Below, piece by piece: positions 7,333 to 62,600 of a stretch of DNA of 64,000 bases. The translations under genes were made by a program, and so were the position numbers. Within the stretch, counting starts at the first letter, position 1; each line of letters begins with the position of its first letter. The notes beneath the pieces are model-generated. The model made no database searches. It saw nothing but the letters and a program-made list of their open reading frames with translations, and had not been told where the DNA came from. This DNA is from Hormiphora californensis (Eukaryota; Animalia; Ctenophora), in NCBI GenBank assembly GCA_020137815.1, contig CM035350.1:10230001-10294000 (forward strand), written 5' to 3'.

Positions 7333-9702
7333 TTAAATTAAATATCTCGTAAGTTCGGAACATTCCTCTTTATTGTTCATACCAGGTCTCAGTTTCTGTA
7401 TATACATGGCCTCTAAAATTTTCCTCTTTAAAATGTTTCTCTCGGTGGTTAATATCTTAAAACTGAGTTTAGGGGGTGTGTTTTTATGACGTGATGTGTA
7501 ATGAATGGCTAGAGGGGTATCAATGTAGCTCGGCGCATTAGGATTGTTAGCATTGCGGGAATGTTCTGACAATCTGTCGTGTACCGACCTACAAGACTCT
7601 CCCACATAGATTTCACCACACAATAAACATGTTATCTGGTACACTGGTGACATGGTGTTACACGAGCCCTTCTCGAGTCTTTCACAAATATTACAATTTT
7701 TCGCAAGACACTCTAGATTGTCGTGAGGTCGTGAGCTACATAGCATGTCTCTCAAGCGGGTGCCTGGGGTGAAGACTAAATCGATTGGCAGAGCTCTGGC
7801 GGTGATAAACTTACGTATTTCACCACTCACAGTTTCAGAAACATACGGTAATTTCAACATCACATTGTTATTACCCTTTGTCAACCTACCCCGGGTTCTC
7901 TGTTCTCCAAATTGTCTGGGGTGTTCATACCCATTAGCTAAAAGAAGTCTGTCAGTAATGGCTAAGGACTGTTCCAATAATTCCGGGTTAGATGATGAGA
8001 TCTCTGCAGTTCTGTAGAAGTTGCGTACTGTCTGCACTTTCGTTTCCAGAGGGTGGTGAGACCGGAAGTGCAGGGTGATGTCCTTTCTCGTACCTTTTCG
8101 ATAGAACTTAGATTCCAGCTTATCATCAGTAATTCGAATCTCAGTGCCAAGGAATGGTGTAAAATCTCCGTCCTCAGGAAAATCCACCTCCCATTTTAAC
8201 AATTCTCTCGGATCTTGTCGGGCAATGTTATTGAAAAGAGAGATGGCGGTTTCCCTGTTATCTGCGAGCGTCCAGGCATCATCAATGTACCGGCCGTACA
8301 ATGATAAAGAGATGAATTTCACGTCGGTATAGATGGTTGCCCTCTCAAATTTGTAAACTCGAATAACTGCAGCAATGGGACTTGGTCGACAGCCCATAAA
8401 CAAACCAACCAACTGTTTGTATACTCTACCACAGTAAGTGAAGTAGGAGTTAGTTAGCACCAATTCCAGGATCTGGTGCACGTCACAGAGGTGCAACTCA
8501 CGGAGATTCAGGAGCTCTCTATTCTCAGCAGCAAAGTCAATGACATCCTTCACACAATCCTCGATCACAAGATTGGTGTATAGAGCTGAAATGTCTGCTG
8601 AGCAGAAGTGCTTACCCTTCAGCTGTTCTGGTGGGAGTTCAGCTAACTGTTTGAGGTGCGTGTGTATGTTGCTCAGATGACTGGGGATCAGATTCAGGAG
8701 GGGACTCAGGATCTGGGTTACCAGAGCAGCCAATTTCTCCGAGGGGGATCCGACACATGACACAATTGGCCGCACCTTCCCTTGCTCTAAGATGTCTGTT
8801 GGAGAGCATAGGGAGTCAGCATTGAACTTATGGGTCTTTACGAGAACATACATACATGGCAGACGAGTGTTGGTCGTCTTTAGTGCCTTGTACATTTGAT
8901 CCCCAAAACCTCTCGACACACAGATATCTCCCCACAGGTGATTGCATTCATTTTCAAGGTGGGAAACATACCAAGAGATCTGATTTTGGTATGTAGTCTG
9001 GGTTGGTCGACGTACATCCACCCACTCTCCCTTCAATTTTCTAGTGGGGTGTATGATTTGATACACACCTGAGTTAGTATCTAAATGAGTCTGTGTCAAT
9101 TGTTGTTGCAGGTTGCGATCTGTTACCACGAACTCACCACCCTTATCACTAACCGAGATATGTATGTCATGGAGACGGGATTTGAGAGATTTCAGACCAG
9201 CTGCTTTCTGGTGTGAGAGATTGAACTGGATCTTGGTGTGTTCCAGTTGCACGTGGATTTTCTTCTGCAGCTGTCGAAGGTTCTCCTCCATCTCAGTACT
9301 AGCTGGTGGGGGTGGGTTGATGAACCTCCTGTTGGTAGGTATCTTGTCCTGTCTCCATACCTGCAGCCGTGTGGGCACTGTGTCCCGTTCGAGGGAAGAC
9401 TGTTGCCACCTGAGTCGGTAGGCACAAGCCGCGAGTTCTGCGTTGACCTCTGATATGAATCTGTCTCCCACAGTAGGGGTCAATGCAAAGTTGGGACCTA
9501 ACTCAAGAACCGCTTTTTCTTGGGGCGACAAAACGGTCAAAAGGTTTGTCACACGCTCCTCTGGGACACTTTCAGGTTTCATGGACGGAGGGGAAGCAAG
9601 ATGTTGTGGTGTAGGAGTTGTAGGTTCGGGCGGGACCGGGCGTTGTCGGGTACGCTGCAACTCAAATTTCCCCTTAAGTTTCCTCTTAATCTCACTCTTC
9701 AT
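7333..9702 (-). CDS. Penelope-like reverse transcriptase / GIY-YIG endonuclease (the frame stays open to ~9842)
   Basis: KTHK, RPIVS, SADISALYTN, GLFMGCRPSP, RYIDD and FLG RT motifs; a Cys-rich linker CLAKNCNIC; PVYQITCLLCGEIYVGES...RLSEH GIY-YIG domain; ILEAMYIQK...MN end. Confidence 0.95.
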   Translation of the reverse strand: MKSEIKRKLKGKFELQRTRQRPVPPEPTTPTPQHLASPPSMKPESVPEERVTNLLTVLSPQEKAVLELGPNFALTPTVGDRFISEVNAELAACAYRLRWQQSSLERDTVPTRLQVWRQDKIPTNRRFINPPPPASTEMEENLRQLQKKIHVQLEHTKIQFNLSHQKAAGLKSLKSRLHDIHISVSDKGGEFVVTDRNLQQQLTQTHLDTNSGVYQIIHPTRKLKGEWVDVRRPTQTTYQNQISWYVSHLENECNHLWGDICVSRGFGDQMYKALKTTNTRLPCMYVLVKTHKFNADSLCSPTDILEQGKVRPIVSCVGSPSEKLAALVTQILSPLLNLIPSHLSNIHTHLKQLAELPPEQLKGKHFCSADISALYTNLVIEDCVKDVIDFAAENRELLNLRELHLCDVHQILELVLTNSYFTYCGRVYKQLVGLFMGCRPSPIAAVIRVYKFERATIYTDVKFISLSLYGRYIDDAWTLADNRETAISLFNNIARQDPRELLKWEVDFPEDGDFTPFLGTEIRITDDKLESKFYRKGTRKDITLHFRSHHPLETKVQTVRNFYRTAEISSSNPELLEQSLAITDRLLLANGYEHPRQFGEQRTRGRLTKGNNNVMLKLPYVSETVSGEIRKFITARALPIDLVFTPGTRLRDMLCSSRPHDNLECLAKNCNICERLEKGSCNTMSPVYQITCLLCGEIYVGESCRSVHDRLSEHSRNANNPNAPSYIDTPLAIHYTSRHKNTPPKLSFKILTTERNILKRKILEAMYIQKLRPGMNNKEECSELTRYLI

Positions 9703-36730: not shown

Positions 36731-38106
36731 CAGACAGACAGACTGTGACAGACAAACTGTGTGACAATGTAACAATGTGACAATGTAACAATGTGACAAT
36801 GTAACAATGTAACAGACAAACTGTGTGACTATAATGTGACAAACAAACAGACAAACTGGGTGACAAACTGTGTGACAACAATGTGACAGACAATGTTGGG
36901 TGCATGTGACTGTGTTACAATGTGTTTGGGGTGTGCTATGAACTGCTATTATATTGTGTGAAGTTTGCTACTTATAAAAGTGACAAGTGTGCTATGTCTG
37001 CAGGTTCAGTAATGCCGTGTATGCCGCATGTTGCATGAAGTGTGAGTGATGCCGTGTGAACTGTGAAGGTACGTGTGTGTGAACTGTGAAGGTACGTGTG
37101 AACTGTGAAGGTACGTGTGAACTGTGATGCCGTGTGACTCTCCTCTCTTGTGATCCAGGACGCGAACTACAGTGAGATAGAGAGAGAGGGAACCACCAAT
37201 CCAGGGGAGGAGGAGGAAGGAGACAAGGAACATTGACACTTGGGAGAGAGCAGGGACAACAGTGATAATATCGACTGTTACATTAGTGATTTAGCAACAA
37301 GACATTATAGACTGGGATGTAGCTATAGAAAATAAATCAGTTCCTACCATCAATTGTAGGGGTACGAGGCGATAACTGGTCAAGCTGTTACTCGATATGG
37401 GGATGACACCAACTGACCCTCTGAGGATATACCCCCTTTTTAATATGAATTTAATGTTTTAATTTGTTAATTATTCTTCTCTCTCTCGCAGTTAATCTCA
37501 CCCGGGTAATTCTCTCTGTTTTTTGTTCTAATATTTGTGTATTTTGATCGAGTATTATGTCGAGTTAATATTATATCCGTGACCCACCTTGTATATGTTA
37601 TCCCTTTACCACTTCTTAGCTGAATAACTACTGCAGTTTGTTATTGTCTATACTGGCAGGTGTGTGTGTTGCTCAGAGACACACAGTGTGGAGCACATGG
37701 AGCGCGAATATTGCGACACCCCCCGCCCTTCTCTCTCTCTCTTTCTCTCTCCCCCCCCCGGCCCCGCTATTACCCTTTCCTACACGTGCAGTGTATTGCA
37801 GCAGCATTATAATATGTACAATATTGCTGCCACGGCCCTTTATTGGAAAGCATATTTTACTGAAACTTACCGTCTCACAGTGTGAACTGAAACGAAGCTT
37901 ACCATTAGAAATGCCCCTCGGCCCTCATCACACATAGAATACTGAATATGACTCTGTCAAACAAACCTGACCGTCCTTTGTCCTTGACTACCTCATCCTA
38001 TAAACCCTCCATAAAACTCTTCCTGTTAATAAAGGATGCAATTGCATGTGTTCCTAACATGACATGACCTGTTAACATGACGTGACTCTGATCTCCCTAA
38101 TAAAGG

Positions 38107-38634
38107 ATGCATGTATTCCTCACCGGTAAGCCCGGTGTTGGAAAGACAACGCTAGTGAAACATCTCCTGGAGACAATTCCAGCCGGATCTGTTTCCGGGT
38201 TTTACACGGAGGAGGTCCGGGGTGAGGGAGGGAGGATTGGGTTTGATGTTGTCTCAGTTACAGACCCCACCAGCCGCTCTAAACTTGCCCGGGTGGGTGC
38301 CCCAGGGAGGCACAAGGTTGGGAAATACACTGTTTGCAAGGACGGGTTTGAGATACATGCACTACCCCTCCTCTCAACTCCATCTCGAGTTGTGGTGATC
38401 GATGAGATAGGCAAGATGGAGTTGTTTAGTGATTCGTTCAAAAGGAAGGTTGGTGATGTGTTGAATAGACCCGGGACACTTGTCATAGCTACTGTCCCAG
38501 TGCAGCCGATACCCTTTGTGAACCAACTCAAGAGCAGGGAGGATGTTGTGTTGTTCACCATTACTAAAGAGAACAGAGATGAAGTGAAGGGAGTTGTAGG
38601 TGATAAGATTCAATATATCTTATCTAACTTGTAG
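38107..38634 (+). CDS. NTPCR: Cancer-related nucleoside triphosphatase (NTPase_1/THEP1 family), single exon
   Basis: HVFLTGKPGVGKTT Walker A, GFYTEEVR...RIGFDVV, VGKYTV, VIDEIGKMELFS. Confidence 0.96.
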   Translation: MHVFLTGKPGVGKTTLVKHLLETIPAGSVSGFYTEEVRGEGGRIGFDVVSVTDPTSRSKLARVGAPGRHKVGKYTVCKDGFEIHALPLLSTPSRVVVIDEIGKMELFSDSFKRKVGDVLNRPGTLVIATVPVQPIPFVNQLKSREDVVLFTITKENRDEVKGVVGDKIQYILSNL

Positions 38635-44386: not shown

Positions 44387-47300
44387 ATGACAGATGTAGA
44401 GAAGATAAGGGCATTGAAAAGTTTGATAAAGGAGCACTTGAAGGGAGCGGGAGTAGCGGAAAAGATAGATGCAGCACTTGGAGACAATAAAGATGCGCTG
44501 AGTAGGGAAAATGTGATAGATCATGTAGTCAGGGATATCAAAAACACTTCCCTCAATTCACCGGAAAAGGGGGATGAAACGAAAAAAGCACAACCAGGTA
44601 CGATCCCGGGCAAAGGAATTTTGAAACTTCCGAGGAAAATTCAATTTTCCTTGGAATTTCGCTGATATCACGTCCTAAAGTTCATGTCACCCACACTCTG
44701 TAACCCTAAACCGGAACTTGTACTCGGGGGGCTATTGGTTTTTTTGCGTGTCTGTGTGGCCTGTAAAGTTAACGATTCCTCATTGAGTGTCATGACAGTG
44801 TTTCTGATGACAATTCATTATGTTTCAGAAGGTAACACACAAAGATCAGGCAAGAGGTTCCTGCAGGTGTCAATAACAAGGGGCAGGGCATTCCTAGATG
44901 ACCTAGTTGAGGAACACACTGCTACCATCCAGATACATGCCATCTGCTTAGGTAATAAGGAAGTTGGGCAATCCGGAGATTAAACAACATCCGGACAACA
45001 TATTACCCCCCCCCCAATGTGTTTTACTCACACCCTCTCACGCCAGGTAAAAGGGTGACCAGTAAGGCGGTTAAAGCAGAGTGTGACCCTACATTTGATG
45101 AAACCTTCTATTTCTGTGTTGATGAAGTTGAGAAGAAGCCTGGTGGATTACTGGAGTGTTCAGATAAACTGGTTATATTGCTGACGAGAACAAATAAAGC
45201 AGGGTCCACCAACTTGCTAGGTAGGTGCTGGGTGGTTTATTATTAGAGGGGGTATCAGGGAGTATATTCTGTTGTCTCTAGGACTCGGGCTTTCATTAGA
45301 ACAACTCACGTACATTGAATACACCACATTCAGGTACATGTGAACTGGACTGGAGGGAGGTGTTGGATAAGACAGAGGTGAAACTGAACCCTGAACTGCA
45401 TGGAACCAAATCAGAGGGTGGTGTGTCTGTTGGTCTCCTCTTCCTCTCTCTGAAACTCCTGCCAGTGCCCTCAACTAGGATCTCCAGAGACAGGCTGAGA
45501 GGTCAGTTAGGAGGGGAACAAGAGAGAGCAACAGAACGAAACAGACTGTTCCTAATGTATACTAAACAGTGGTGGAACGAGTATCTAGGGATCAGAGCCG
45601 GGTTAGAGGAGCGGAGGGTGAAAATATTCGCCGAGGTAAATAGTAATGAACTATATAGCTGGAAATGAATGTTATATTTTGTTACTACTTCGGTGCATGT
45701 GGGTACCTCTACACAGCTGTTTGATTGGTGTATTTACCGGTATTACCCCCACACACAGGATGAGAGAGGAGAATCCCAACTAGTTTGTCTCTTTCTGAGT
45801 CCCATTCAGTCCTCCCTCATTGAATCACCCCGGATAGCAACCAGATTTGTATCTCTATTCCCAACACTTCGAACAGCACTCCCTGGTGCAAGTGAACAAT
45901 GGCTCTCTGCTACTGCATTCCTAGTTGGCAAGACAGGGGTAAGTGGTGGTGGAATTAATAACAAACAATTTGTATCACCCCTTTGTTCAGATACCCAGTG
46001 CGTATGTCTCACAATAACCAACACACTATCTAACACTCCCCCACCCCTTCAGGATGCCATTAACCACAGTCTGTTGCTATGTAGCTTCTTTCTTGGTTTC
46101 AAACTGCATTGCTACGTTGCTATAGGAACCAATACTCGTGGTGTCCCAATCTCCTGGGTAGTTCTACTAAACGGACCCACCCCAACCCATGTAGACCCCC
46201 TTACCGGCCAGAGATACGGACCTGGGGTCCCTGCCATGCCATTCAAAACAGTGGACTGCCTGTTCAGTGATAGGGCTCTATTTGCTAACATCCAGGCCAG
46301 CAATAGTGTGGGAAATGTCAGGTAAGTTACCAGAAATGATACCCCCCTCCCCTGATACTACTAAGTAAGGAGTGAGACATGATACACTGAATGAAACTGT
46401 GTGCTTACTAGATTTTAAATAAAAATACTTCAGTTTACCCCTGTTGCAATGATAGTTAGTATGGAATTTAGAAGGGGTGAAGCACTCTATATTTGTAGAG
46501 GCCTTCAAGCATGTGTAGTATGTGTCTTTGTGTGAGCTAGTAAACACTGAGGCATCTTCCACCCATCATGTACCATTACCAGCTTAACATAATGCTATGT
46601 GATGACAAGATCTATCGGCACAAAAGGGAAAGAGATGTTGCCAAATAGCTGTAATAGCATCTACTGCACATTAATATCAGTGCGGGCTCATACTTCAACT
46701 CACAACTGACTGACCAGGCTTCAGGTGTAACTAGCAACACATGTAGGGACATGTGAATGGGCACAATGAACTGAAACTAATGAACGAAGACTATGAGACT
46801 GACAGCGACTTAGTAAGTCTCCCATTATACTGACAACTAGTTTACGTGCTATTTACTGTACTACTAATCCCCACCACTCACCAGGTACATTGTACAATAT
46901 GGCCGACCCAGTGCTATCTACTACTAACCCCCCCGCCCCCAGGTACAATGTAGCTGACCCAGTACTGTGGAAGGAACTAAGTGGGGAGGCTATATGCAGT
47001 ATGAGAGGGCCCCAACCATTACCCATCACTCTAACCCCCAACACCATGGACCTAGATCACATTGCTACACAGCTAGAACACTCTCTAAAAAGGTAGGAGG
47101 AGGCCACAATGCTAAACAATAGTTGGTGTGTTACAGTTGGTCAGTAATGTTGACCAACCCGACCCCAGCAAGATCCAAGTTTCCCCCGTCATTATCTCAC
47201 TGCAAACCCCCCCCCCCCCCCAGGCAGTTTTGAATGAAAAAAAAGGGGGTTTTATTTGGGCCCCTTTGGGAATAAGACCCAGAACTTTTTTCCCCCCCCC

Positions 47301-48527
47301 TCTTCCGGGGGGGTTTTTTGGGGGGCCCCTTTAAATGCAACGGGTTAGAAAAAAANNNNNNNNNNNNNNNNNNNNNNNNNNNNNNNNNNNNNNNNNNNNN
47401 NNNNNNNNNNNNNNNNNNNNNNNNNNNNNNNNNNNNNNNNNNNNNNNNNNNNNNNAAAAGTTGGGGGGTTACAGTTGGGGGCCCAAATTAATTTCCCCCA
47501 ACCCGGACCCCAGCAAATCCCCACCAACCAGTTTCAACAACCTTTCATTAAAAAATTTCTTCCCTAAGGAAACCCCGCGCCCAGCAGACCAGTTCCCCAC
47601 CCCCCCTCCCCAGGCTAGTTCGAGATGAGAGAGAGAGGTTTGATTTGGGCACCCATTGGAATAATGACCTAGCACACCTTCTCCTCCCCGCCCTCAGCGC
47701 ATACGAGTTAGAACGTTGTTCAGGTGGGAACACTTCATTGATATTTACACATGTTTGTTATTATTGTTCTCTCTTTGAATTGTATTTGTTCTCTGTTTTT
47801 AGTTTCAACTGTTTCCAGGGGTTTGTGTGAGCAATGAGGATTTTGAGAACGCAGTGCGACATGCCGTCCCCAGTGGGTTCACCTTCAAGGGATATCCCTC
47901 TCAATTTATACACCTCAATCCCAAGACCATATTTTCACAGTGCCTCAAGTGAGTAACGTTGTTTTGTGCGTTGTAGTAACGCGCCCCGACACCAGTGTTG
48001 GGGTGGTCGCGCGCAGTCAACGCGCCCCTTTTCTGTAGATGCAGCTTCAAGGGGATTTGCTCTGACAAGCGCCCCACACCCCCCCCCAGTGACCATTCCC
48101 TTTCCTCTCTCTTGCAGTACTGCCCAAGGACCATTCGGCAGTTACCACTACCGCTTTAAAATATACTGAACAAGAAATACATGTCCTTCGAAACTGTTTG
48201 GCGGCGCCCACCCAATCTGATCAAAATGGGGTCTGGCGGCGCCAGACAGCCACGAACAGGGCCCTCTCACTCCATACTTACCACGCTATGCGAGATCAGA
48301 GCCCTGTTATCAGTACCAACAAACATTTACACGCGTCTACCCAAATACCCTCCGGCCTCCTAACTCCTAACTCCCTTCTCTCCCACAGGTCGAGTGTCTG
48401 TTCAGAAATCATCTCACTACGGGGCGATAGCCTAGATTTCGCAGTTAAAGTCAAGTTGTACCCGTACCCAGAAAATGTGACTGCCTGCTGGCTAATGTTT
48501 GCCTGTCAGTACCGCTGTGTAACGTAG
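44387..48527 (+). CDS. CEP76: Centrosomal protein 76; ~10 exons (44387-44597, 44829-44951, 45047-45220, 45334-45635, 45759-45938, 46053-46321, 46943-47092, 47614-47723, 47819-47948, 48389-48527)
   Basis: RFLQVSITRGRAFLDDL (C2-like), RLFLMYTKQWWNEYL...VKIFAEDE, NHSLLLCSFFLG...ISWV (transglutaminase-like), PALSAYELER, FKGYP, YPENVTACWLMFACQYR. Confidence 0.93.
47356..47455. other. Assembly gap (100 N) with degraded duplicated flanks
   Basis: N run; ~47130-47225 and ~47468-47615 are error-rich copies of the same intron end. Confidence 0.95.
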
Positions 48528-51304: not shown

Positions 51305-53028
51305 GGCAAGCTAGCAAGCAGCTAGCTTGGTCTTGGAGAGATCTCCTAGATCGCGAAGCTACAGGAGATAGCATCGTGGAGCGGGGTGTATTTTCTTAAT
51401 TCAGCCCCCGTCCCATATCTCATTCATGATTTCCCCCCACCCCTCCCCCCCTTTTTCACTTTTCTACCATTGATAATTCACACGTACCATCTAGCAAATA
51501 TTAGAGGGTATGTTGCTTAATTATCTGCGGAGCAAGGAGCTCATAAAAGATTGAGAGAGAGAGGGAGAGAGATAGAGAGATAAGAGACAGAGAGAGAAGA
51601 CAGAGAGAGAGAGACATATCTAGACAGATAGATCAGAGATAAGAGAGTATAGTTAGCTATAGAGATAGAGATATATCTCACTCGCTCGTCTCTCTTCTCT
51701 CTCTCTCTCTCCTCTCTCTCTCGCTCTCTCTACTCTCTCTCTCTCTCCTCTCTCCTCCTCTCTATGCTAGCTACTATTTTGGGACTGACTCATTTATGCC
51801 CACTATTCCATTTCCTCTTGTAATATCTGCTTTTTTTGTTGTTTTCAACATTTTTCTCTGCATTTTTATACTCTTCCTACGCTACCCTGATCTTGGTCTG
51901 TCTGGCGGCGCCCAATTTGATTCTCAAACTAACACGACAGTGCGCTCAGATGGGGTCGGCGGCGCCAGAAAGATCTCTTATTGACATTGTCCACCTGATT
52001 TGACAAAGATGCAAATGTACCGGGGCGGGCCGTTTGAGTCCTTGCTAATTTTTTGGCATTTTTAAAACCCCCAATTTGCCCTTGCCGGGCCCCCTTTTAA
52101 TTTAAACCTTAAAAAATTTGCGGAATTTTCCCGGGAAAGGGATTTAAAGAATTAGGGGGGGAAATTTTGGGGGGTCCCGGGGTCTTGGGGGATGAAGGAG
52201 GAACAATGGGGGGGGGGGAGTTCTGGGGAAGGGGGGGGTAGGGGGGGGGGGGAGGGGAAAAGGGAATTGGGGGGAGAAGGGGGGGGGGAAGGGGGTGGGG
52301 GGGGGGGGGAAAGGGGGGGGGGGGGGAAAAAGGGGTGGGGGGGGGGGGGGGGGGGGGGAGTGAGGGAGAAGATGGGGGTGGGGGGGGGAAGGGAAGGGGG
52401 GGGGGAAGGGGGGAGGTTAGGGGAGGGGGAGGTGTCCCCCCAGGATAGGGGGTAAAATTTGAGAATCAGGGGGTGGGTGGCCCCTTCCCCCATGTTTTAA
52501 AAAACCCATTTGAAAACCAAATTTTCTCTCCTTTAAAATTTTTGTACCCCCTTTTTTTTTTTAAAAAGGGGGTTTACCCCTGTCACCCGGGTAAACCCCT
52601 CCGCAAAAAAGGCTTTCCCTAGCCTTTTCTCGGGTAACAAAACTTAAATCCCTTGCATTTCTTTTTTTCCCTTTTTCTTCTCCTTCTTTCTTTTCTTCTC
52701 TCTCTCTCCTCTCTCCCCTCTTCTCTCTCTCCCCCCTTCCCCTTTTTTTTCCCCCCCTCTTTTCCCCTCTCCTTTTCCCCCAAACAATATTACAACCGCC
52801 TGGTTTTTTCACTGGGGCCCCCTTTTTTTCCCCTACCTCCCCCCTTTCCTTTCTCCGGTTGGATTTGCCCCCAGCCCCAATTTTGCCCCCCCCGGCACCC
52901 CACCCTCCCCGGCCCCCCCCCCCCCTGGAAAACCCCCCCCATTCCCCAAAGCTTCCCCCTGGAACCCCAGATTTCCCCTTACCAGATCCCACCAAAAGCC
53001 TGGTTCTTTTCGGGATATCCTGAGTAGG

Positions 53029-54099
53029 TTGGGTGTTTGCCTGGTAGGGTTCACCTGGGCCGCCATCTCCCGTCCCCTATCCTTCCTACACTTCACCTAT
53101 CTCTACCATAAGACATTCACTGCTCGGTGGGCGGGTGTTGGTGCTGTCATATTCCTACCCCTGGTGCCTCTGATCCTCCTGGTAAAGGCAGTCCTCCTCT
53201 CCAAGCTGTCCTTCCTCACCATGCTAGATGTAAATGATGAGGATCTGGAGAGCATGAGATTCTTCACCAATGACCTCTCCCCTGCCGTCAGCACCCTGTA
53301 TGACTACACCCAGGAGATGAGCAACTATGTGGCAAACTTCTATATCCTGGGCCCTAATGAGCTGGCTCTGAGGACCATGTATTGGGACACCCCCCTCACT
53401 ACCAAGAGGTTCTGGAGGGGACAACTCGTGGCGGCCGGTGCAGCAGTTCCCGAGTGCCTGGCAGAGTGGAATGAGGGTAGGTTGGAGATGGAGGTGGAGG
53501 AACTACCTGACAGGGTCCTGGTGAAGGTGGTAGATTCCTGTATGGGTGTGGGAGACAAGTTCCTGACACGGGGGACACACTACAACAGCAGGGTGGAGAT
53601 AGAAAGTTTGATGAAGGAGTCGTACGAGGGAAAGGGTTGTATACTACTCCGAGTTGTCCGGCCCCTGCCTCGGTTGGGGGTTCACTCTCTAGATATCCTA
53701 ACTGCCCGGGCCCCAGATGGTAGTGTGATGTTGGTTGATGTGATTGTGTGGTCAGGAAGTGCTACAGACTCCTCTCACTCTGCCACCAGAAGTCACATGA
53801 TACACCCTGAATCTGGGGAGTCGTGTAACTATGGGAGATGGTACAACCCCAACTTTGTAGGGACGGGTAATGAGGGTCTGGGCGTGGTATACCCTGGGGT
53901 AAAGGAGGCGGTCCAGCTGGCACTGTCTGCCCATCAGAACCTGCCCTATGATTGGTTGAAGGTGATTGGTTGGGACTGTATGATAACAGAGGACGGGAGT
54001 GTGGTGTTCTTCGAGGGGAACCTGGCCGCCTGGAGATGCCCCAGAAGACTGTTTTTAACTTTACCCAGCTTCATCTTCTTTGCTAGTTATCTAGCATAA
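53029..54099 (+). CDS. Membrane-anchored ATP-grasp protein (sugar-transfer-associated ATPgrasp_ST-like); no introns in the readable part, 5' end in low-quality sequence
   Basis: 356-aa open frame with hydrophobic N-terminal helices; VLVKVVDSCMGVG; HPESG; G..YPGVKEAVQLALSAH...LKVIGWDCMITEDGSVVFFEGN (ATP-grasp D...ExN). Confidence 0.8.
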   Translation: MGVCLVGFTWAAISRPLSFLHFTYLYHKTFTARWAGVGAVIFLPLVPLILLVKAVLLSKLSFLTMLDVNDEDLESMRFFTNDLSPAVSTLYDYTQEMSNYVANFYILGPNELALRTMYWDTPLTTKRFWRGQLVAAGAAVPECLAEWNEGRLEMEVEELPDRVLVKVVDSCMGVGDKFLTRGTHYNSRVEIESLMKESYEGKGCILLRVVRPLPRLGVHSLDILTARAPDGSVMLVDVIVWSGSATDSSHSATRSHMIHPESGESCNYGRWYNPNFVGTGNEGLGVVYPGVKEAVQLALSAHQNLPYDWLKVIGWDCMITEDGSVVFFEGNLAAWRCPRRLFLTLPSFIFFASYLA

Positions 54100-56386: not shown

Positions 56387-58430
56387 ATGAGCTATAAATA
56401 AGAACTACACAATTGACAGGCCACCCTCACTAATCACTTTATCATCAGGTAGTTACAGTTCTGTCAAGGAGGCAGTACAGAATTATAAGATTACCCACAT
56501 AATAAACTGTACCAGGGACCCCGTCCCTTTTTAAAAAACGTTCAATTTCCCACGGTTTTTAATTGTTGTCAGTTTTGTTCGACCCTGTTTCACCACTGCC
56601 CAAATGTTGTATGAAAAAAACGAGCGGTGGGTTTTTCCCAAAAAAAACTCGATCAAAATAAATCTTCAAACGGGTTCCCCCCCACGCCTCTTTTCCCCAA
56701 CAGGGTATCTGTTGATGATCAGCCAGCGGTAAAGATTGGTAAACATTTTGATAAGATAACCAGTAAAATGTTCGATACGATTAAAACTGGTGGAAAAGTC
56801 ATGGTCATCTGTAGAGCAGGTAAATCTTAATCTATACCCTAGATTTGTAAAAATATTGCCTGTTAAATTGACGATTCGAGAAAATTTTCTCGCTTGAATT
56901 TGCGATTCGGGAAAGTTTTCTCGCTTAGATTTGCGATTCGAGAAAATTTTCTCGCTTAGATTTGCGATACGGGAAAAAAAATGTTCGCTTAGGTTTGCGA
57001 TTCGGGAAAATAAATGTTCGCTTAGATTTGCGATTAGGAAAATTTTTCTCGCTTAGATAGATTTGCGATTCGGAAAAAAATGTTCGCTTAGATTTGCGAT
57101 TCGGCAAAATTTTCTCGCTAAGATTCCCGATTCGGGAAAAAATGTTCGTTTAGTTTTGCGATTCGGGAGAATTTTCTCGCTAAGGTTCACGATTCGGGAG
57201 AAAAAAAAAACCGCTTAGATTTGCGATTCGGGATTTTTTTTTCGCTTAGATTTGCGGTTCGGAAAAAAAATGCTCTCTTGGATTTTCGATTCGGGAAAAT
57301 TTTCTCGCTCAGATTTGCGATTCGGAAAACTTTCTCGCTTAGATGTTCGCTTAGATTTTCGATTCGGGAAAATTTTCAAGTTCAGATTTTCGATTCAGGA
57401 AAATTTTCAAGCTTGGATTTGCGATTCGGAAAACTTTCTCGCTTAGATTCCCGATTCGGGGAAAAAACGTTCGCTTAGATTTTTCGATTCGGGAAAATTT
57501 TCAAGCTTGGATTTGCGATTCGGGAAAAAATGTTTTCTCGCTAAGATTTGCGATTCGGAAAAAAATGTTCGCTAAGATTTGCAATTCGTGAAAATTTTCT
57601 CGCTTAAATTTGCGATTCGGGAAATTTTTCTCGCTTAGATTTGCGATTCGGGAAATTTTTCTCGCTTAGATTTGCGATTCGGGAAATTTTTCTCGCTTAG
57701 ATTTGCGATTCAGGAAAAAATTGTTCGCTTAGATTTGCGATTCGGGAAATTTTTCTAGCTTAGATTTGCAATTCGGGAAATTTTTTTCCCCTTAGATTTG
57801 GGAATTCCCGGAAAAAAAAATTCGCTAAGATTTTCGATTCGGGGGAAATTTTTTCTAAAAAAACCCTTAGGATTTGGGGAATTTTTGGGGAAAGGGGGTT
57901 TTTTGGGGTTTAAAGTGGCACCAAAAAACTTTTCCTTGTTTAAAACCCCTTTCCTCCCTCCTGGGCCCCTTGGGGAACAAAACAACACCATAAGGGGCCT
58001 TTTGTGGGGCATTTACTTTCCGGGCAAAACCAAAATATGGGCATACTTTAACCTTTTTTCCCCCGGGTAAGGGGGTCTACACAAAGGGGCTCTCCTATTT
58101 GATGAAACACAAATGTTTTTGTTTGATGTCCCCCCTCCTTTTAAAATTTACAACTCCCAAGGGGAAATAAACAGCTGGTAGTGCGAAAAATTTCCCAACC
58201 CTAATTTCCCCCCCCGCACTCTCGGTCCCCCCGCACCCCTCTCTCGCTCTTCGGGGCCCCCCTTTTTTCGCCCCCGGAATTCATTTCCCGGGGGGGGGGC
58301 CCCCTTTTCCCCCCCCAAGGCCACCCCCCTTTTCCCCGGGGGGCTTTTCTTTTCCAAACCTCATCAGGTCCGGGCCGACTGATGGATTCTGGGGGTCAAA
58401 ATGATTGGAAATACGAGTGGGGAAATCTTC
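56387..58430 (+). CDS. Atypical dual-specificity phosphatase (DUSP14/18-like), fragmentary because of assembly errors
   Basis: KITHIINCT (~56490); RVSVDDQPAVKIGKHFDKIT...GGKVMVICRAG| (56704-56819); garbled AYLMK-like and RP..GFW..-like pieces at ~58070-58420. Confidence 0.7.
56868..57850. repeat. ~31-bp satellite (cgcttagatttgcgattcgggaaatttttct) in the DUSP intron
   Basis: About 30 diverged tandem copies. Confidence 0.95.
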
Positions 58431-59677: not shown

Positions 59678-62600
59678 CTGAACAAGAATGCGTTTTGCTT
59701 TGTTGAGATCCCTCTTGATACACTGTTTCCCGGCCCCCATTTTTCAGGATTAATCGGCCCAAAAGATCTCCTTTAGATCTTTCCCCCCTTTTTACAGTCA
59801 CACTAACCCCTATTGCAGAGTTGTTTTTTAGATAAAGGAGGGGGGCGCCCGTTTAGTATAGAGGGGCCACCCCCACCACCCCAGGCTGGGGCCACCACTG
59901 GGGCCGGAATAGAGGGGTCGCCACTCGCCACTAAGAGTGTCAACTGTCATGTATGTGTATGTGTGTGTTACCTTGTTTTGCAGTAGCAGCGGAGCTTTGT
60001 TTGATCCTGTCAACCAGTTCAGGAGAGAGACAGGATGTTGCTTCAAAGGTCTTGTCCAGTAGTATGTTAGCCTCTGCTGCATAGATACAACCCAGTAGGC
60101 GGAGGTCTACAGGAGCTGTCCCCTAGTTCGATTAGGGCCTGGGCAGGCTGAATGGCCTGAAGAGGGTCCCCCAACTCGAGCCAGACATATGCCAGATTGC
60201 AGAGCACTGAGGCCCTCAGCCCTGATGGGTTCTTTACAGGAGCTGCCGGCAGACACTTTACACTGAAGGAAAGGTAGTGAATAGTGATACAAATGTTCTG
60301 GAATGAGGGATGCCATTATAGGGGATCAGATATTAAGGGGATCAGATATCGTTTCTCCACTAAAAAGTAATCTCCACACTACATGATACGTACCTCTCAG
60401 CACCAGGCGGTAACAAGTCCAGTGCGTTGTTGAGGCACAATACAGCGTAGGTTAAACTTGGCGTGGGCCCATCGTTCAGCAAACTGGCACTGTAAAATGT
60501 TTTTATTTTACAAACCGGCGCTGCAAAATGTTTTATTTTACAAACCGGCGCTGTAAAATGTTTATATTTTACAAACCGGTACTGTAAAATGTTTTTATTT
60601 TACAAACCGGCGCTGCAAAATGTTTTTATTTTAGTTTTACAGACGTGTCGTTGTTTTTTGTAACTCTCTACTCACTAGAAAGTTTGGAACCTGTCACTGA
60701 GTGGGCCTGTATAACTATAAAACAGTGACAGCTATCAAATCTTTGTGTTTTTTTCTGCAGAACTATACCCAACAATATGTTGTGTTAATATATTCATTTC
60801 CTATAGGATGAACGATACATTAGTAACCTCACTGAGGCCGGGTGTTATTGCCCTGCTATGTACCAGTCCTCCTTTATCCCTCCTGGCCATGATAACCCTG
60901 GTAATGAGGCAATCCATATCCTGCAATAAGATATATATCTACATGGTATCTCTAGACTTCCTTTCCATCCTCTCTGGGTGCCTCTACCTGGCCCACAACC
61001 ACGCCTTCAACTTCACATCCATGGTTGACTACTACAGTATGTTGACCCTGTTTCTCGGTCTGGCTGTGGTCAGATTGAGGCTGTTCCAGGGACCCGTGGG
61101 TTTGATATCAGAGGTCCTGGTGATCACAGGATCACTACTAACCGGGGTCAGTGTTGCTATATTCCACACCCATCAAGGAATGGAGGATGATATGATCACC
61201 ACTCTCGTCCAGGCATGGGTGTTCCTCGTTGCTATGGCAGTCACCACAGTCCTCAATGCCATCCTGGTGATACGACTCTGTGCCTTCATCTCTGAACACG
61301 GTGCTACAGAACATAGAGCAGCACACATCGTCTCCATTATCCTGTTCATCAACTACATCATCTTCCATCTCTTCCCCGTTGCAGTGGAGATAAGGAGAAT
61401 TCTGGGTCTCCAAGGAGAGGGGAGATGTGCAGGGATAGAGGCCGGATCGTGGTGGTATAAAGTGTTTTGTACATCAGAGGGCAGGCATTCCTTCATGATA
61501 CTATCCATGCTGAGCCTCTCTGTTACCAATAGCATGATCCTTCTGCTTCAATCTCAGAGCAGACACGCTTTGAGACGGTTCTACCACTCTCTCAGGTCCA
61601 GAGTCAGAGAGTTCTGGGCTTCTGAATCTAGCTACCAGTACAGACAAATATAATGCAGCAGCAGACAATCCCGTGTGTGTGTGTGTGTGTAACAAAGAAC
61701 TAATTCCTTTTTTACTTTGAACATTGTGAAAGTGAACTGTATTTCTAAAACTCGTGTTTTGTTCAAGTTTAGTTGTTTACCTTGTGCGAAGGGATTTCTG
61801 TTGAAATCCCGTGTTAAGGATGGTTTTCCTGTACGTTCCACTTCCAACAATACACTTCACAGTGCTGCTGTGGGTCGAGGGAGGGCTAGCAGCCTTCTTC
61901 TCTTTACACGCTCCAATAGCACACTCTGCTATCCGGAGCCACAACCTCGGGTTCCTAGTGTAGACACTGGCTGCTTCAGTGAGACAGTTGAACGCTGCAT
62001 TAGGCTGTCCTGGAGAGAGGAGGATATGAGATATGATAATGATATCACGAAATGGTAAAGTGTCACCCTCTCTCTGTTTCATACCAGTGTGGAGAAGTAG
62101 AATCCCATAGTTGTATAGTAGCTGGTAATAGTGGTTAACGCTGTACACTGCACTTGTATTACCTGGAGGGTGGTTAGAATGGTGACTGAGACCCGGTGAG
62201 ACAAAATGGGTGGGACGGCCCCGAGATTCACAACTTCTGTATTCCCCAATCTTGGATTCGAATGTGCGCGCGAGAGAGATCACCATTACCATATCGCGCG
62301 CTCCGTCAATGAAGACAGAAAAGTGTGCCACTGAGTGTGCCAAAAAGGTACCTTTTGGGAGGGACTTCACCGCTTTAGAGTTCGCCTCCAATGCCTGGCT
62401 GAGATACAGTGCTCCCAAGTTGTATTTTCTCATCTGAGGATAGTTTTAGATCAGGGGACAAGTATTTATTAAAACGAGTCAAAAGAAGTTATTAAAAGGA
62501 CTGCTACAAGAAATAATATTTTGAGTGCTGACTCTGTCTCACCGCGGGCCCTCTACATATTTAAAGGTTAGAACATAACAACTAAGTGTTGAGTGCTAAG

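What the first reader, a model, noticed from the sequence alone, without database searches (positions are those of the whole stretch)
53029..54099. Bacterial-type, membrane-anchored ATP-grasp ligase ORF without introns among intron-rich animal genes
Seen: more than 1 kb of uninterrupted frame with N-terminal hydrophobic helices and a C-terminal block HPESG...YPGVKEAVQLALSAH..LP...IGWDCMITEDG.VVFFEGN. Known: this block resembles the signature of the sugar-transfer-associated ATP-grasp family (Pfam ATPgrasp_ST), which is mostly bacterial and linked to surface-polymer/peptide modification. It is not a standard animal ATP-grasp such as TTLL, RimK-like, synapsin or carnosine synthase. Inference: a horizontally acquired or patchily retained amide/peptide ligase, possibly part of an undescribed biosynthetic or surface-modification pathway in this lineage.
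Basis: partly seen in the sequence, partly recalled or inferred. Interest (0 to 1): 0.75.

Follow-up and report, generated by a model that had tools for sequence, protein, structure and literature searches.

The report
Plankton-type membrane ATP-grasp enzyme in comb-jellies
A comb-jelly genome holds an unbroken gene for a predicted membrane-anchored ATP-grasp enzyme whose closest relatives look like proteins of marine single-celled eukaryotes rather than bacteria, and because the family has mostly replaced the arginine typical of peptide ligases it likely joins some other acid to a membrane-bound acceptor by a reaction not yet described.

Summary
The ORF is real: an open frame with the quoted motifs, 94% identical to a Pleurobrachia bachei protein, with host-like codon usage. 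Structure prediction and fold searches confirm an ATP-grasp core with both lysines, Asp and ExN, behind a hydrophobic helical N-terminus. 'Bacterial-type' is not supported. The Pfam ATPgrasp_ST hit is below cut-off (26.4 vs 31.4 bits). The gene sits in a clade of 14 close homologs (13 unnamed) nested in a family of marine-protist-like proteins, with giant-virus proteins as a weakly supported sister, and grouping it with bacterial ST proteins is rejected (AU p=0.0002). The family mostly replaces the peptide-ligase arginine with Asp/Glu (84 of 91) and adds near-invariant His/His/His/Arg/Arg. Best reading: a membrane-bound ATP-dependent ligase acting on a lipid or lipid-linked acceptor (substrate inferred, untested), gained from a protist or kept patchily. 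Not found in the papers searched; the paper that probably defines ATPgrasp_ST could not be read. The scan had not reported it before. Linkage to the flanks and expression remain unshown.

The parts
53005..54099 (+). Clean coding part of the gene (364 codons plus stop), with no intron in this part
   Evidence: 22 of 358 residues differ from P. bachei P0002, mostly conservative
52720..53004 (+). Low-quality sequence that probably holds the corrupted N-terminal coding region; true start not recoverable
   Evidence: Frameshift-tolerant alignment to P0002 residues 1-120 scores 25.6 vs shuffled mean 18.1, sd 2.6, max 25.3 of 30 shuffles: suggestive only
53023..53349 (+). All-helical N-terminal region (residues 1-109) standing where the usual pre-ATP-grasp domain lies; includes hydrophobic segment 41-59 (53143-53199), the predicted membrane anchor
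   Evidence: AlphaFold2 secondary structure; hydropathy
53356..54048 (+). ATP-grasp catalytic module (residues about 112-342): K128, K168, loop DSCMGVGD, R210 (Glu in most of the family), H221-S-L-D224, H252, H304, D318, E331-G-N333, R338, R341
   Evidence: Fold searches; conservation over 91 family members
53878..54024 (+). The only stretch matched by Pfam ATPgrasp_ST (residues 286-334)
   Evidence: E 5e-06, 26.4 bits, cut-off 31.4

Best explanation
This is a comb-jelly host gene for a predicted membrane-anchored ATP-grasp enzyme of an unnamed, protist-rich eukaryotic family, which likely uses ATP and Mg to activate a small carboxylic acid as an acyl-phosphate and join it to a lipid or lipid-linked acceptor at a membrane surface. 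Shown: the ORF, its conservation, the predicted fold, the nucleotide- and Mg-binding residues, the hydrophobic N-terminus and the place in the tree. Inferred from superfamily chemistry (PMC3249071): the acyl-phosphate step. Inferred and untested: the membrane location, the lipid nature of the acceptor, and that the family's His221/Asp224/His252 and Arg338/Arg341 form the new substrate site in place of the lost peptide-ligase arginine. Origin: more likely one transfer from a marine protist into an early ctenophore (about 0.5) than old vertical inheritance with many losses (about 0.35); the donor is unresolved.
For: Host gene: 94% identity to EukProt P. bachei P003965; 14 close homologs form one clade, SH-aLRT 100; codon usage correlates with five other window ORFs (r 0.64), not with a protist-like homolog (0.11) or two bacterial ST genes (0.08). 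Fold: pLDDT 87.6 and 93.8; top 50 VIA-align rows are dominated by ATP-grasp enzymes, Z up to 12.7, rmsd 4.5 over 237 residues. Active site: K128 85 of 85 non-gap rows, K168 90 of 91, D318 90 of 91, E331 89 of 91, N333 88 of 91. Membrane: 53 of 61 members with a long enough N-terminus have a 19-residue window of KD 1.6 or more, against 5 of 78 bacterial motif-scan proteins. Changed substrate site: position 224 is Arg in 22 of 22 bacterial and 5 of 5 viral rows but 2 of 33 family rows. Eukaryotic family: clade support 99, stem length 1.26; named members are from MMETSP and EukProt; top Atlas cluster is Eukaryota 100%, commonest Haptophyta.
Against: No substrate evidence at all: no conserved gene neighbourhood in the two protist-like contigs or 11 viral loci inspected. 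The adenine-binding Glu is Arg in this protein (R210; 79 of 91 relatives have Glu/Asp). Some members lack a strong hydrophobic window (P0016, P0057, P0123), so the helices could be a soluble bundle or a monotopic patch. Fold hits do not separate ligases from kinases (Ddl, LysX, synapsin, PPIP5K2 and ITPK1 lie at Z 9.3-11.7). An Atlas cluster of 62 bacterial proteins (commonest Cyanobacteriota, score 0.96, 192 of 256 features) could not be fetched and might be a closer bacterial relative than those in my tree.
Confidence: 0.45

Rival explanations
1. It is an ATP-grasp kinase or phosphotransferase (working like ITPK1 or PPIP5K) that phosphorylates a hydroxyl of a membrane lipid or sugar, possibly through one of its invariant histidines.
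For: The peptide-ligase Arg is lost and three histidines are near-invariant (91, 89 and 91 of 91). PMC3249071 notes that ITPK acts on a hydroxyl with a likely phosphohistidine intermediate. ITPK1 and PPIP5K2 are among the fold hits.
Against: Its sequence kin are ST-type proteins, annotated as ligase-like, and the kinases rank no higher than ligases in the fold lists.
Confidence: 0.2
2. It is an ST-like amino-acid or peptide ligase that modifies a surface polymer, protein or soluble peptide, with Arg338/Arg341 taking over from the lost arginine.
For: Best Pfam match is ATPgrasp_ST for 15 of 17 members at E up to 0.1; top fold hits are peptide ligases (3wvq, ArgX, Ddl); a few members keep the Arg (4 of 91); compensation by a shifted basic residue is described for the R2K clade.
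Against: The ST motif N-T-x-R is H-S-x-D here; the hydrophobic N-terminus is rare in the bacterial set (5 of 78).
Confidence: 0.22
3. The gene came directly from a bacterium into ctenophores.
For: No intron in the clean part; distant ST similarity; an unfetched bacterial Atlas cluster scores 0.96.
Against: AU test rejects animal-like plus bacterial ST (p 0.0002); the best bacterial motif-scan protein scores 47.5 bits on the family profile; the GTDB pattern scan confirmed 0 of 21 stretches; 1 of 101 genomes of one phylum had a match, at 42 bits.
Confidence: 0.06
4. The segment is contamination (prey alga or symbiont) or a chimeric join in a noisy assembly.
For: Both flanks are low quality; no read linking it to CEP76 was obtained; the clean 3' flank matches no repeat elsewhere in the window.
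Against: A 94% identical ortholog in P. bachei, a graded clade of relatives at 40-80%, and host-like codon usage with GC3 0.635 against 0.85 in the protist-like homolog. Misplacement within the host genome is not excluded.
Confidence: 0.03

Closest known systems
Pfam PF14397 ATPgrasp_ST (bacterial sugar-transfer-associated ATP-grasp)
   Same: Nearest named family; shares both lysines, the Gly loop, the Thr of the xxLxIxT strand and GWD...EGN.
   Different: Below the cut-off and matched over 47 of 278 positions (true members score 112-188 bits); N-T-x-R replaced by H-S-x-D; added His252, His304, Trp273, Arg338, Arg341; hydrophobic N-terminus; separate clade with a long stem.
Uncharacterised giant-virus ATP-grasp proteins (IMG/VR loci L180, L182, L186, L189, L193; UniProt G9E685 of Micromonas pusilla virus SP1)
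   Same: Hydrophobic N-terminus, KxxW motif and His304; profile-profile probability 98.6, E 6e-16; best viral structure hit, E 3e-08 over 380 columns; sister in the tree at SH-aLRT 92.
   Different: They keep the ligase arginine (5 of 5), lack Arg338/Arg341, are shorter (about 315-350 aa) and share 16% profile identity.
Solved ATP-grasp ligases (entry 3wvq, ArgX/LysX, D-Ala-D-Ala ligase, BesA, RimK)
   Same: Same catalytic fold, Z 10-12.7.
   Different: 8-18% identity, no sequence hit in the PDB, and the model has helices where these enzymes have an alpha/beta first domain (the latter recalled).
Ctenophore horizontally transferred genes of Hernandez and Ryan 2018 (PMC6005172)
   Same: Precedent: five of nine confirmed Mnemiopsis transfers came from non-animal eukaryotes, nearly all enzymes.
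   Different: None is described as an ATP-grasp or ligase in the main text or the one supplement file searched.

Membership tests
ATP-grasp superfamily | Structural core | tested here: met
   Predicted model matches ATP-grasp enzymes, Z 12.7, rmsd 4.5, 237 aligned; Foldseek E 3e-06 to Ddl
ATP-grasp superfamily | Two Lys/Arg for the phosphates (linker and strand 2) and the ssxGbG loop (PMC4431377) | tested here: met
   K128, K168, DSCMGVG; assigned by motif and secondary structure, not by superposition
ATP-grasp superfamily | Asp plus ExN that bind Mg | tested here: met
   D318, E331, N333
ATP-grasp superfamily | Glx/Asp that contacts adenine (PMC3249071) | tested here: not met
   Arg210 in this protein; Glu/Asp in 79 of 91 family rows. 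Position assigned by alignment
ATP-grasp superfamily | N-terminal pre-ATP-grasp domain (most members) | tested here: inconclusive
   The models show helices and one beta-hairpin there; the region was not folded and searched alone
ATP-grasp superfamily | ATP-dependent acyl-phosphate chemistry | not testable with these tools
   Needs an assay
Peptide/amide-ligase assemblage of ATP-grasps | [quoted passage not shown] | tested here: not met
   Asp224 here; Asp 77, Glu 7, Arg 4 of 91; Arg in 22 of 22 bacterial ST rows at the same column
Pfam ATPgrasp_ST (PF14397) | Gathering score of 31.4 bits | tested here: not met
   26.4 bits over residues 286-334; best E-value among 17 members 2.1e-06
Pfam ATPgrasp_ST (PF14397) | Branches within bacterial ST proteins | tested here: not met
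   Separate clade; AU p 0.0002 against joining 8 animal-like with 22 bacterial rows; the bacterial sample was motif-biased
Pfam ATPgrasp_ST (PF14397) | Genomic association with sugar-transfer genes | tested here: inconclusive
   Neighbours here are CEP76 and unrelated host genes; eukaryotic gene order says little

The most novel reading that the evidence does not exclude
Ctenophores took from planktonic protists, possibly by way of giant viruses, a membrane ATP-grasp enzyme with a rebuilt His/Asp/Arg active site that makes an uncharacterised membrane lipid (for example an amino-acid or betaine-type head group), so that comb jellies would make an algal-type lipid unknown in other animals; the Glu-to-Arg change at the adenine site in Pleurobrachia could also switch it to GTP.
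Probability: 0.12. Interest if true: 0.85.

Novelty: new variant of a known kind. Interest (0 to 1): 0.5.

Why it matters
ATP-grasp enzymes known from animals are a short list of mostly soluble ligases. This is a conserved, apparently unnamed family of membrane-anchored ATP-grasps in marine plankton with an altered active site, and it has a foothold in comb jellies. It offers an expressible enzyme for an unknown marine reaction, and a candidate protist-to-animal gene transfer of a kind that alien-index screens against small databases could miss.

Tried and rejected
No whole genome was held, so copy number and synteny were not checked. No reads were laid on the locus, so linkage and expression are open. 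The run search listed 4 runs of one sample at 0.74-0.89 (possibly the assembly's source, so not independent), 2 runs of a second sample and study at 0.21-0.23, and one metatranscriptome at 0.06; none was laid, so none is used as evidence. PDB sequence searches found nothing relevant, nor did NCBIfam. Plasmid and phage tblastn gave only chance hits or none. The viral scan with the family's own motifs confirmed 0 of 8 stretches; viral relatives came only from a looser pattern. Gene neighbourhoods in L034, L050 and L201-L211 showed no recurring partner. A haptophyte-like donor was neither shown nor rejected (AU p 0.34). The hosts of P0003-P0014 could not be named. The cyanobacterial Atlas cluster could not be reached: none of the 121 bacterial loci was labelled cyanobacterial and 10 had no phylum. 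Longer fused forms were not searched with the word-based tool; the profile search showed one 1200-aa protein with a beta-lactamase-like domain, possibly chimeric. A role in coelenterazine synthesis was considered and dropped because Pleurobrachia is non-luminous (recalled). No complex prediction was run.

Full report
Observation. The clean part starts near 53005; upstream and downstream lie homopolymer-rich, low-quality stretches. Animal-like full-length homologs are 420-484 aa, so about 80-90 codons are missing. A frameshift-tolerant alignment of the P. bachei N-terminus to the noisy upstream DNA scores 25.6 against a shuffled mean of 18.1 (sd 2.6, max 25.3 of 30), which is suggestive only.

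It is a host gene. The best hit is 94% identical over the whole query and is EukProt EP00116_Pleurobrachia_bachei_P003965. The 22 differences in 358 residues are mostly conservative and miss the invariant catalytic residues. Twelve more unnamed proteins at 40-80% identity, some on contigs of 0.2-3.4 Mb, join these two in one clade (14 rows, SH-aLRT 100). That they are other ctenophores is an inference; the deepest pair (P0013, P0014; clusters of 66 and 14 members) has an amino-acid make-up typical of an AT-rich genome and could belong to another animal group. Codon usage correlates with five other ORFs of the window (r 0.64) and not with a protist-like homolog (0.11) or two bacterial ST genes (0.08); GC3 is 0.635, somewhat above the window's other frames (0.40-0.59) and well below the protist-like homolog (0.85). 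No reads were laid, so physical linkage to CEP76 (Pfam-confirmed exons at 45300-47827) and expression are not shown. Lack of introns is no strong sign of foreign origin here, since the window has other long single-frame ORFs.

Fold and active site. AlphaFold2 models of the window protein (pLDDT 87.6) and of full-length P0005 (93.8) match ATP-grasp enzymes throughout the hit lists (Foldseek E 3e-06; VIA-align Z 12.7, rmsd 4.5, 237 residues; Z 11.7), with no subfamily standing out. For conservation I took 282 profile hits among the fetched proteins and locus ORFs, kept 149 that span the core and reduced them to 91 at 90% identity. Using the features listed in PMC4431377 (passages read) and PMC3249071 (passages and part 1 of section 4): K128 is kept in 85 of 85 non-gap rows, K168 in 90 of 91, D318 in 90, E331 in 89 and N333 in 88. 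Two departures matter. The adenine-contacting Glu is Arg210 in this protein, though Glu/Asp in 79 of 91. The arginine that PMC4431377 gives as the mark of most peptide/amide ligases is Asp (77) or Glu (7), and Arg in only 4 of 91; in the joint alignment it is Arg in 22 of 22 bacterial and 5 of 5 viral rows but 2 of 33 family rows. The family instead fixes H221 (91 of 91), H252 (89), H304 (91), R338 (88 of 89) and R341 (86 of 89). Positions were assigned by alignment and secondary structure, not by superposition.

Membrane anchor. The N-terminal part is helical in both models; P0005 begins with a 35-residue helix (mean KD 1.26, three charged residues) and has an uncharged helix of KD 2.06. 53 of 61 members with at least 100 residues before the first lysine have a 19-residue window of KD 1.6 or more, against 5 of 78 bacterial motif-scan proteins. 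A few members have none, so a monotopic patch is as possible as true spans.

Relatives. A profile search of 1.84 billion representatives gave 330 hits at E up to 0.001, of which 150 were listed, without names. The named members are three MMETSP transcripts and one EukProt entry tagged Hpha (I recall this as the diplonemid Hemistasia, unverified). A metagenome scan gave 52 loci at 26-44% identity, mostly 1-2.7 kb; one long contig has eukaryotic neighbours such as an ArfGAP. The top Atlas cluster is Eukaryota 100%, commonest Haptophyta, followed by Nucleocytoviricota clusters. The GTDB scan with family motifs confirmed 0 of 21 stretches. For an outgroup I scanned GTDB with a partly recalled ST pattern (121 loci from 4 of 64 parts); 10 of 10 ORFs checked are true ATPgrasp_ST at 112-188 bits, and the best of 93 scores 47.5 bits on the family profile. 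A looser viral pattern gave five giant-virus-like proteins with a hydrophobic N-terminus; the best viral structure hit is an uncharacterised Micromonas pusilla virus SP1 protein.

Tree. 60 rows: 8 of 14 animal-like, 25 protist-like (three chosen rows dropped for lack of the core motif), 22 of 93 bacterial (hand-picked), 5 viral; quick IQ-TREE, SH-aLRT only. The family is one clade (99, stem 1.26), the animal-like rows nest inside it (99), and the viral rows are sister at 92. Holding animal-like with bacterial rows is rejected (p 0.0002); holding them with the haptophyte-like clade is not (p 0.34). 'Protist-like' is mostly an inferred label. Against my reading: a 62-member bacterial Atlas cluster, commonest Cyanobacteriota, scores 0.96 with 192 of 256 shared features and could not be fetched, and the bacterial sample is biased by the motif used.

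Mechanism. The most likely reading is a membrane-bound ligase: ATP-Mg bound by K128/K168/D318/E331/N333 phosphorylates a carboxylate held by R338/R341, and a nucleophile placed by H221/D224/H252 from a lipid or lipid-linked acceptor attacks it. The residues and fold are shown or predicted; the chemistry follows from the superfamily; the roles of the family-specific residues and the acceptor are inference (0.45). Rivals are an ST-like peptide or polymer ligase (0.22) and an ITPK-like kinase (0.2). Neighbourhoods gave no hint.

Literature. No paper in the library holds both 'ATP-grasp' and 'ctenophore', or 'ATPgrasp_ST', 'sugar-transfer associated' with 'ATP-grasp', or 'PF14397'; none of the 25 listed for ATP-grasp with haptophyte terms contained 'ATP-grasp'. 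Searches were seen as listings. PMC6005172 (passages, section 12, one supplement file searched) lists nine Mnemiopsis transfers, five from non-animal eukaryotes, none a ligase; its list of 37 candidates carries only gene ids in what I saw. PMC11957051 and PMC2824669 (passages) concern other ATP-grasps. Iyer et al. 2009 (PMC3268129), which I recall as the source of the ST family, was not held and may mention eukaryotic members. The scan's earlier notes held nothing by sequence, words or place; other notes on this genome also call it a comb jelly.

Verdict. A real gene and a real ATP-grasp, not a bacterial-type ST member but an apparently unnamed eukaryotic family with a changed active site: a new variant of a known kind, interest 0.5.

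Noticed in passing
window 60808-61650 (+): Single-frame ORF of about 280 codons with several hydrophobic helices and no Pfam hit at E 0.01; its codon usage is the closest to the ATP-grasp gene (r 0.68).
   Followed up: partly
window 56870-57800: Tandem array of a roughly 35-base unit (TTTGCGATTCGGGAAA-type), degraded towards its end; seen by eye.
   Followed up: no
window 38104-38631 (+) and 7336-9660 (-): Other long frames without apparent introns, the first NTPase-like by recall.
   Followed up: no
L034 11812-13338 (+): Directly downstream of the protist-like homolog lies a 500-codon ORF that I recall as resembling acid-ceramidase/C45-type amide hydrolases; no Pfam hit and not seen among the long ORFs of L050.
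   Followed up: partly
L180, L182, L186, L189, L193, L201-L211: Giant-virus-like contigs encode an uncharacterised group of hydrophobic-N-terminus ATP-grasp proteins that keep the ligase arginine; related to G9E685 by structure search.
   Followed up: partly
P0002 residues 40-95: The P. bachei protein has about five copies of an 11-residue repeat (PPSNQAVPLAT type) where other homologs have a short beta-hairpin region; remnants may lie in the noisy DNA upstream of 53005.
   Followed up: partly
P0083: A 1200-aa family member joined to beta-lactamase-like and NTP-transferase-like domains on a single 4.1-kb contig; fusion or chimera.
   Followed up: partly
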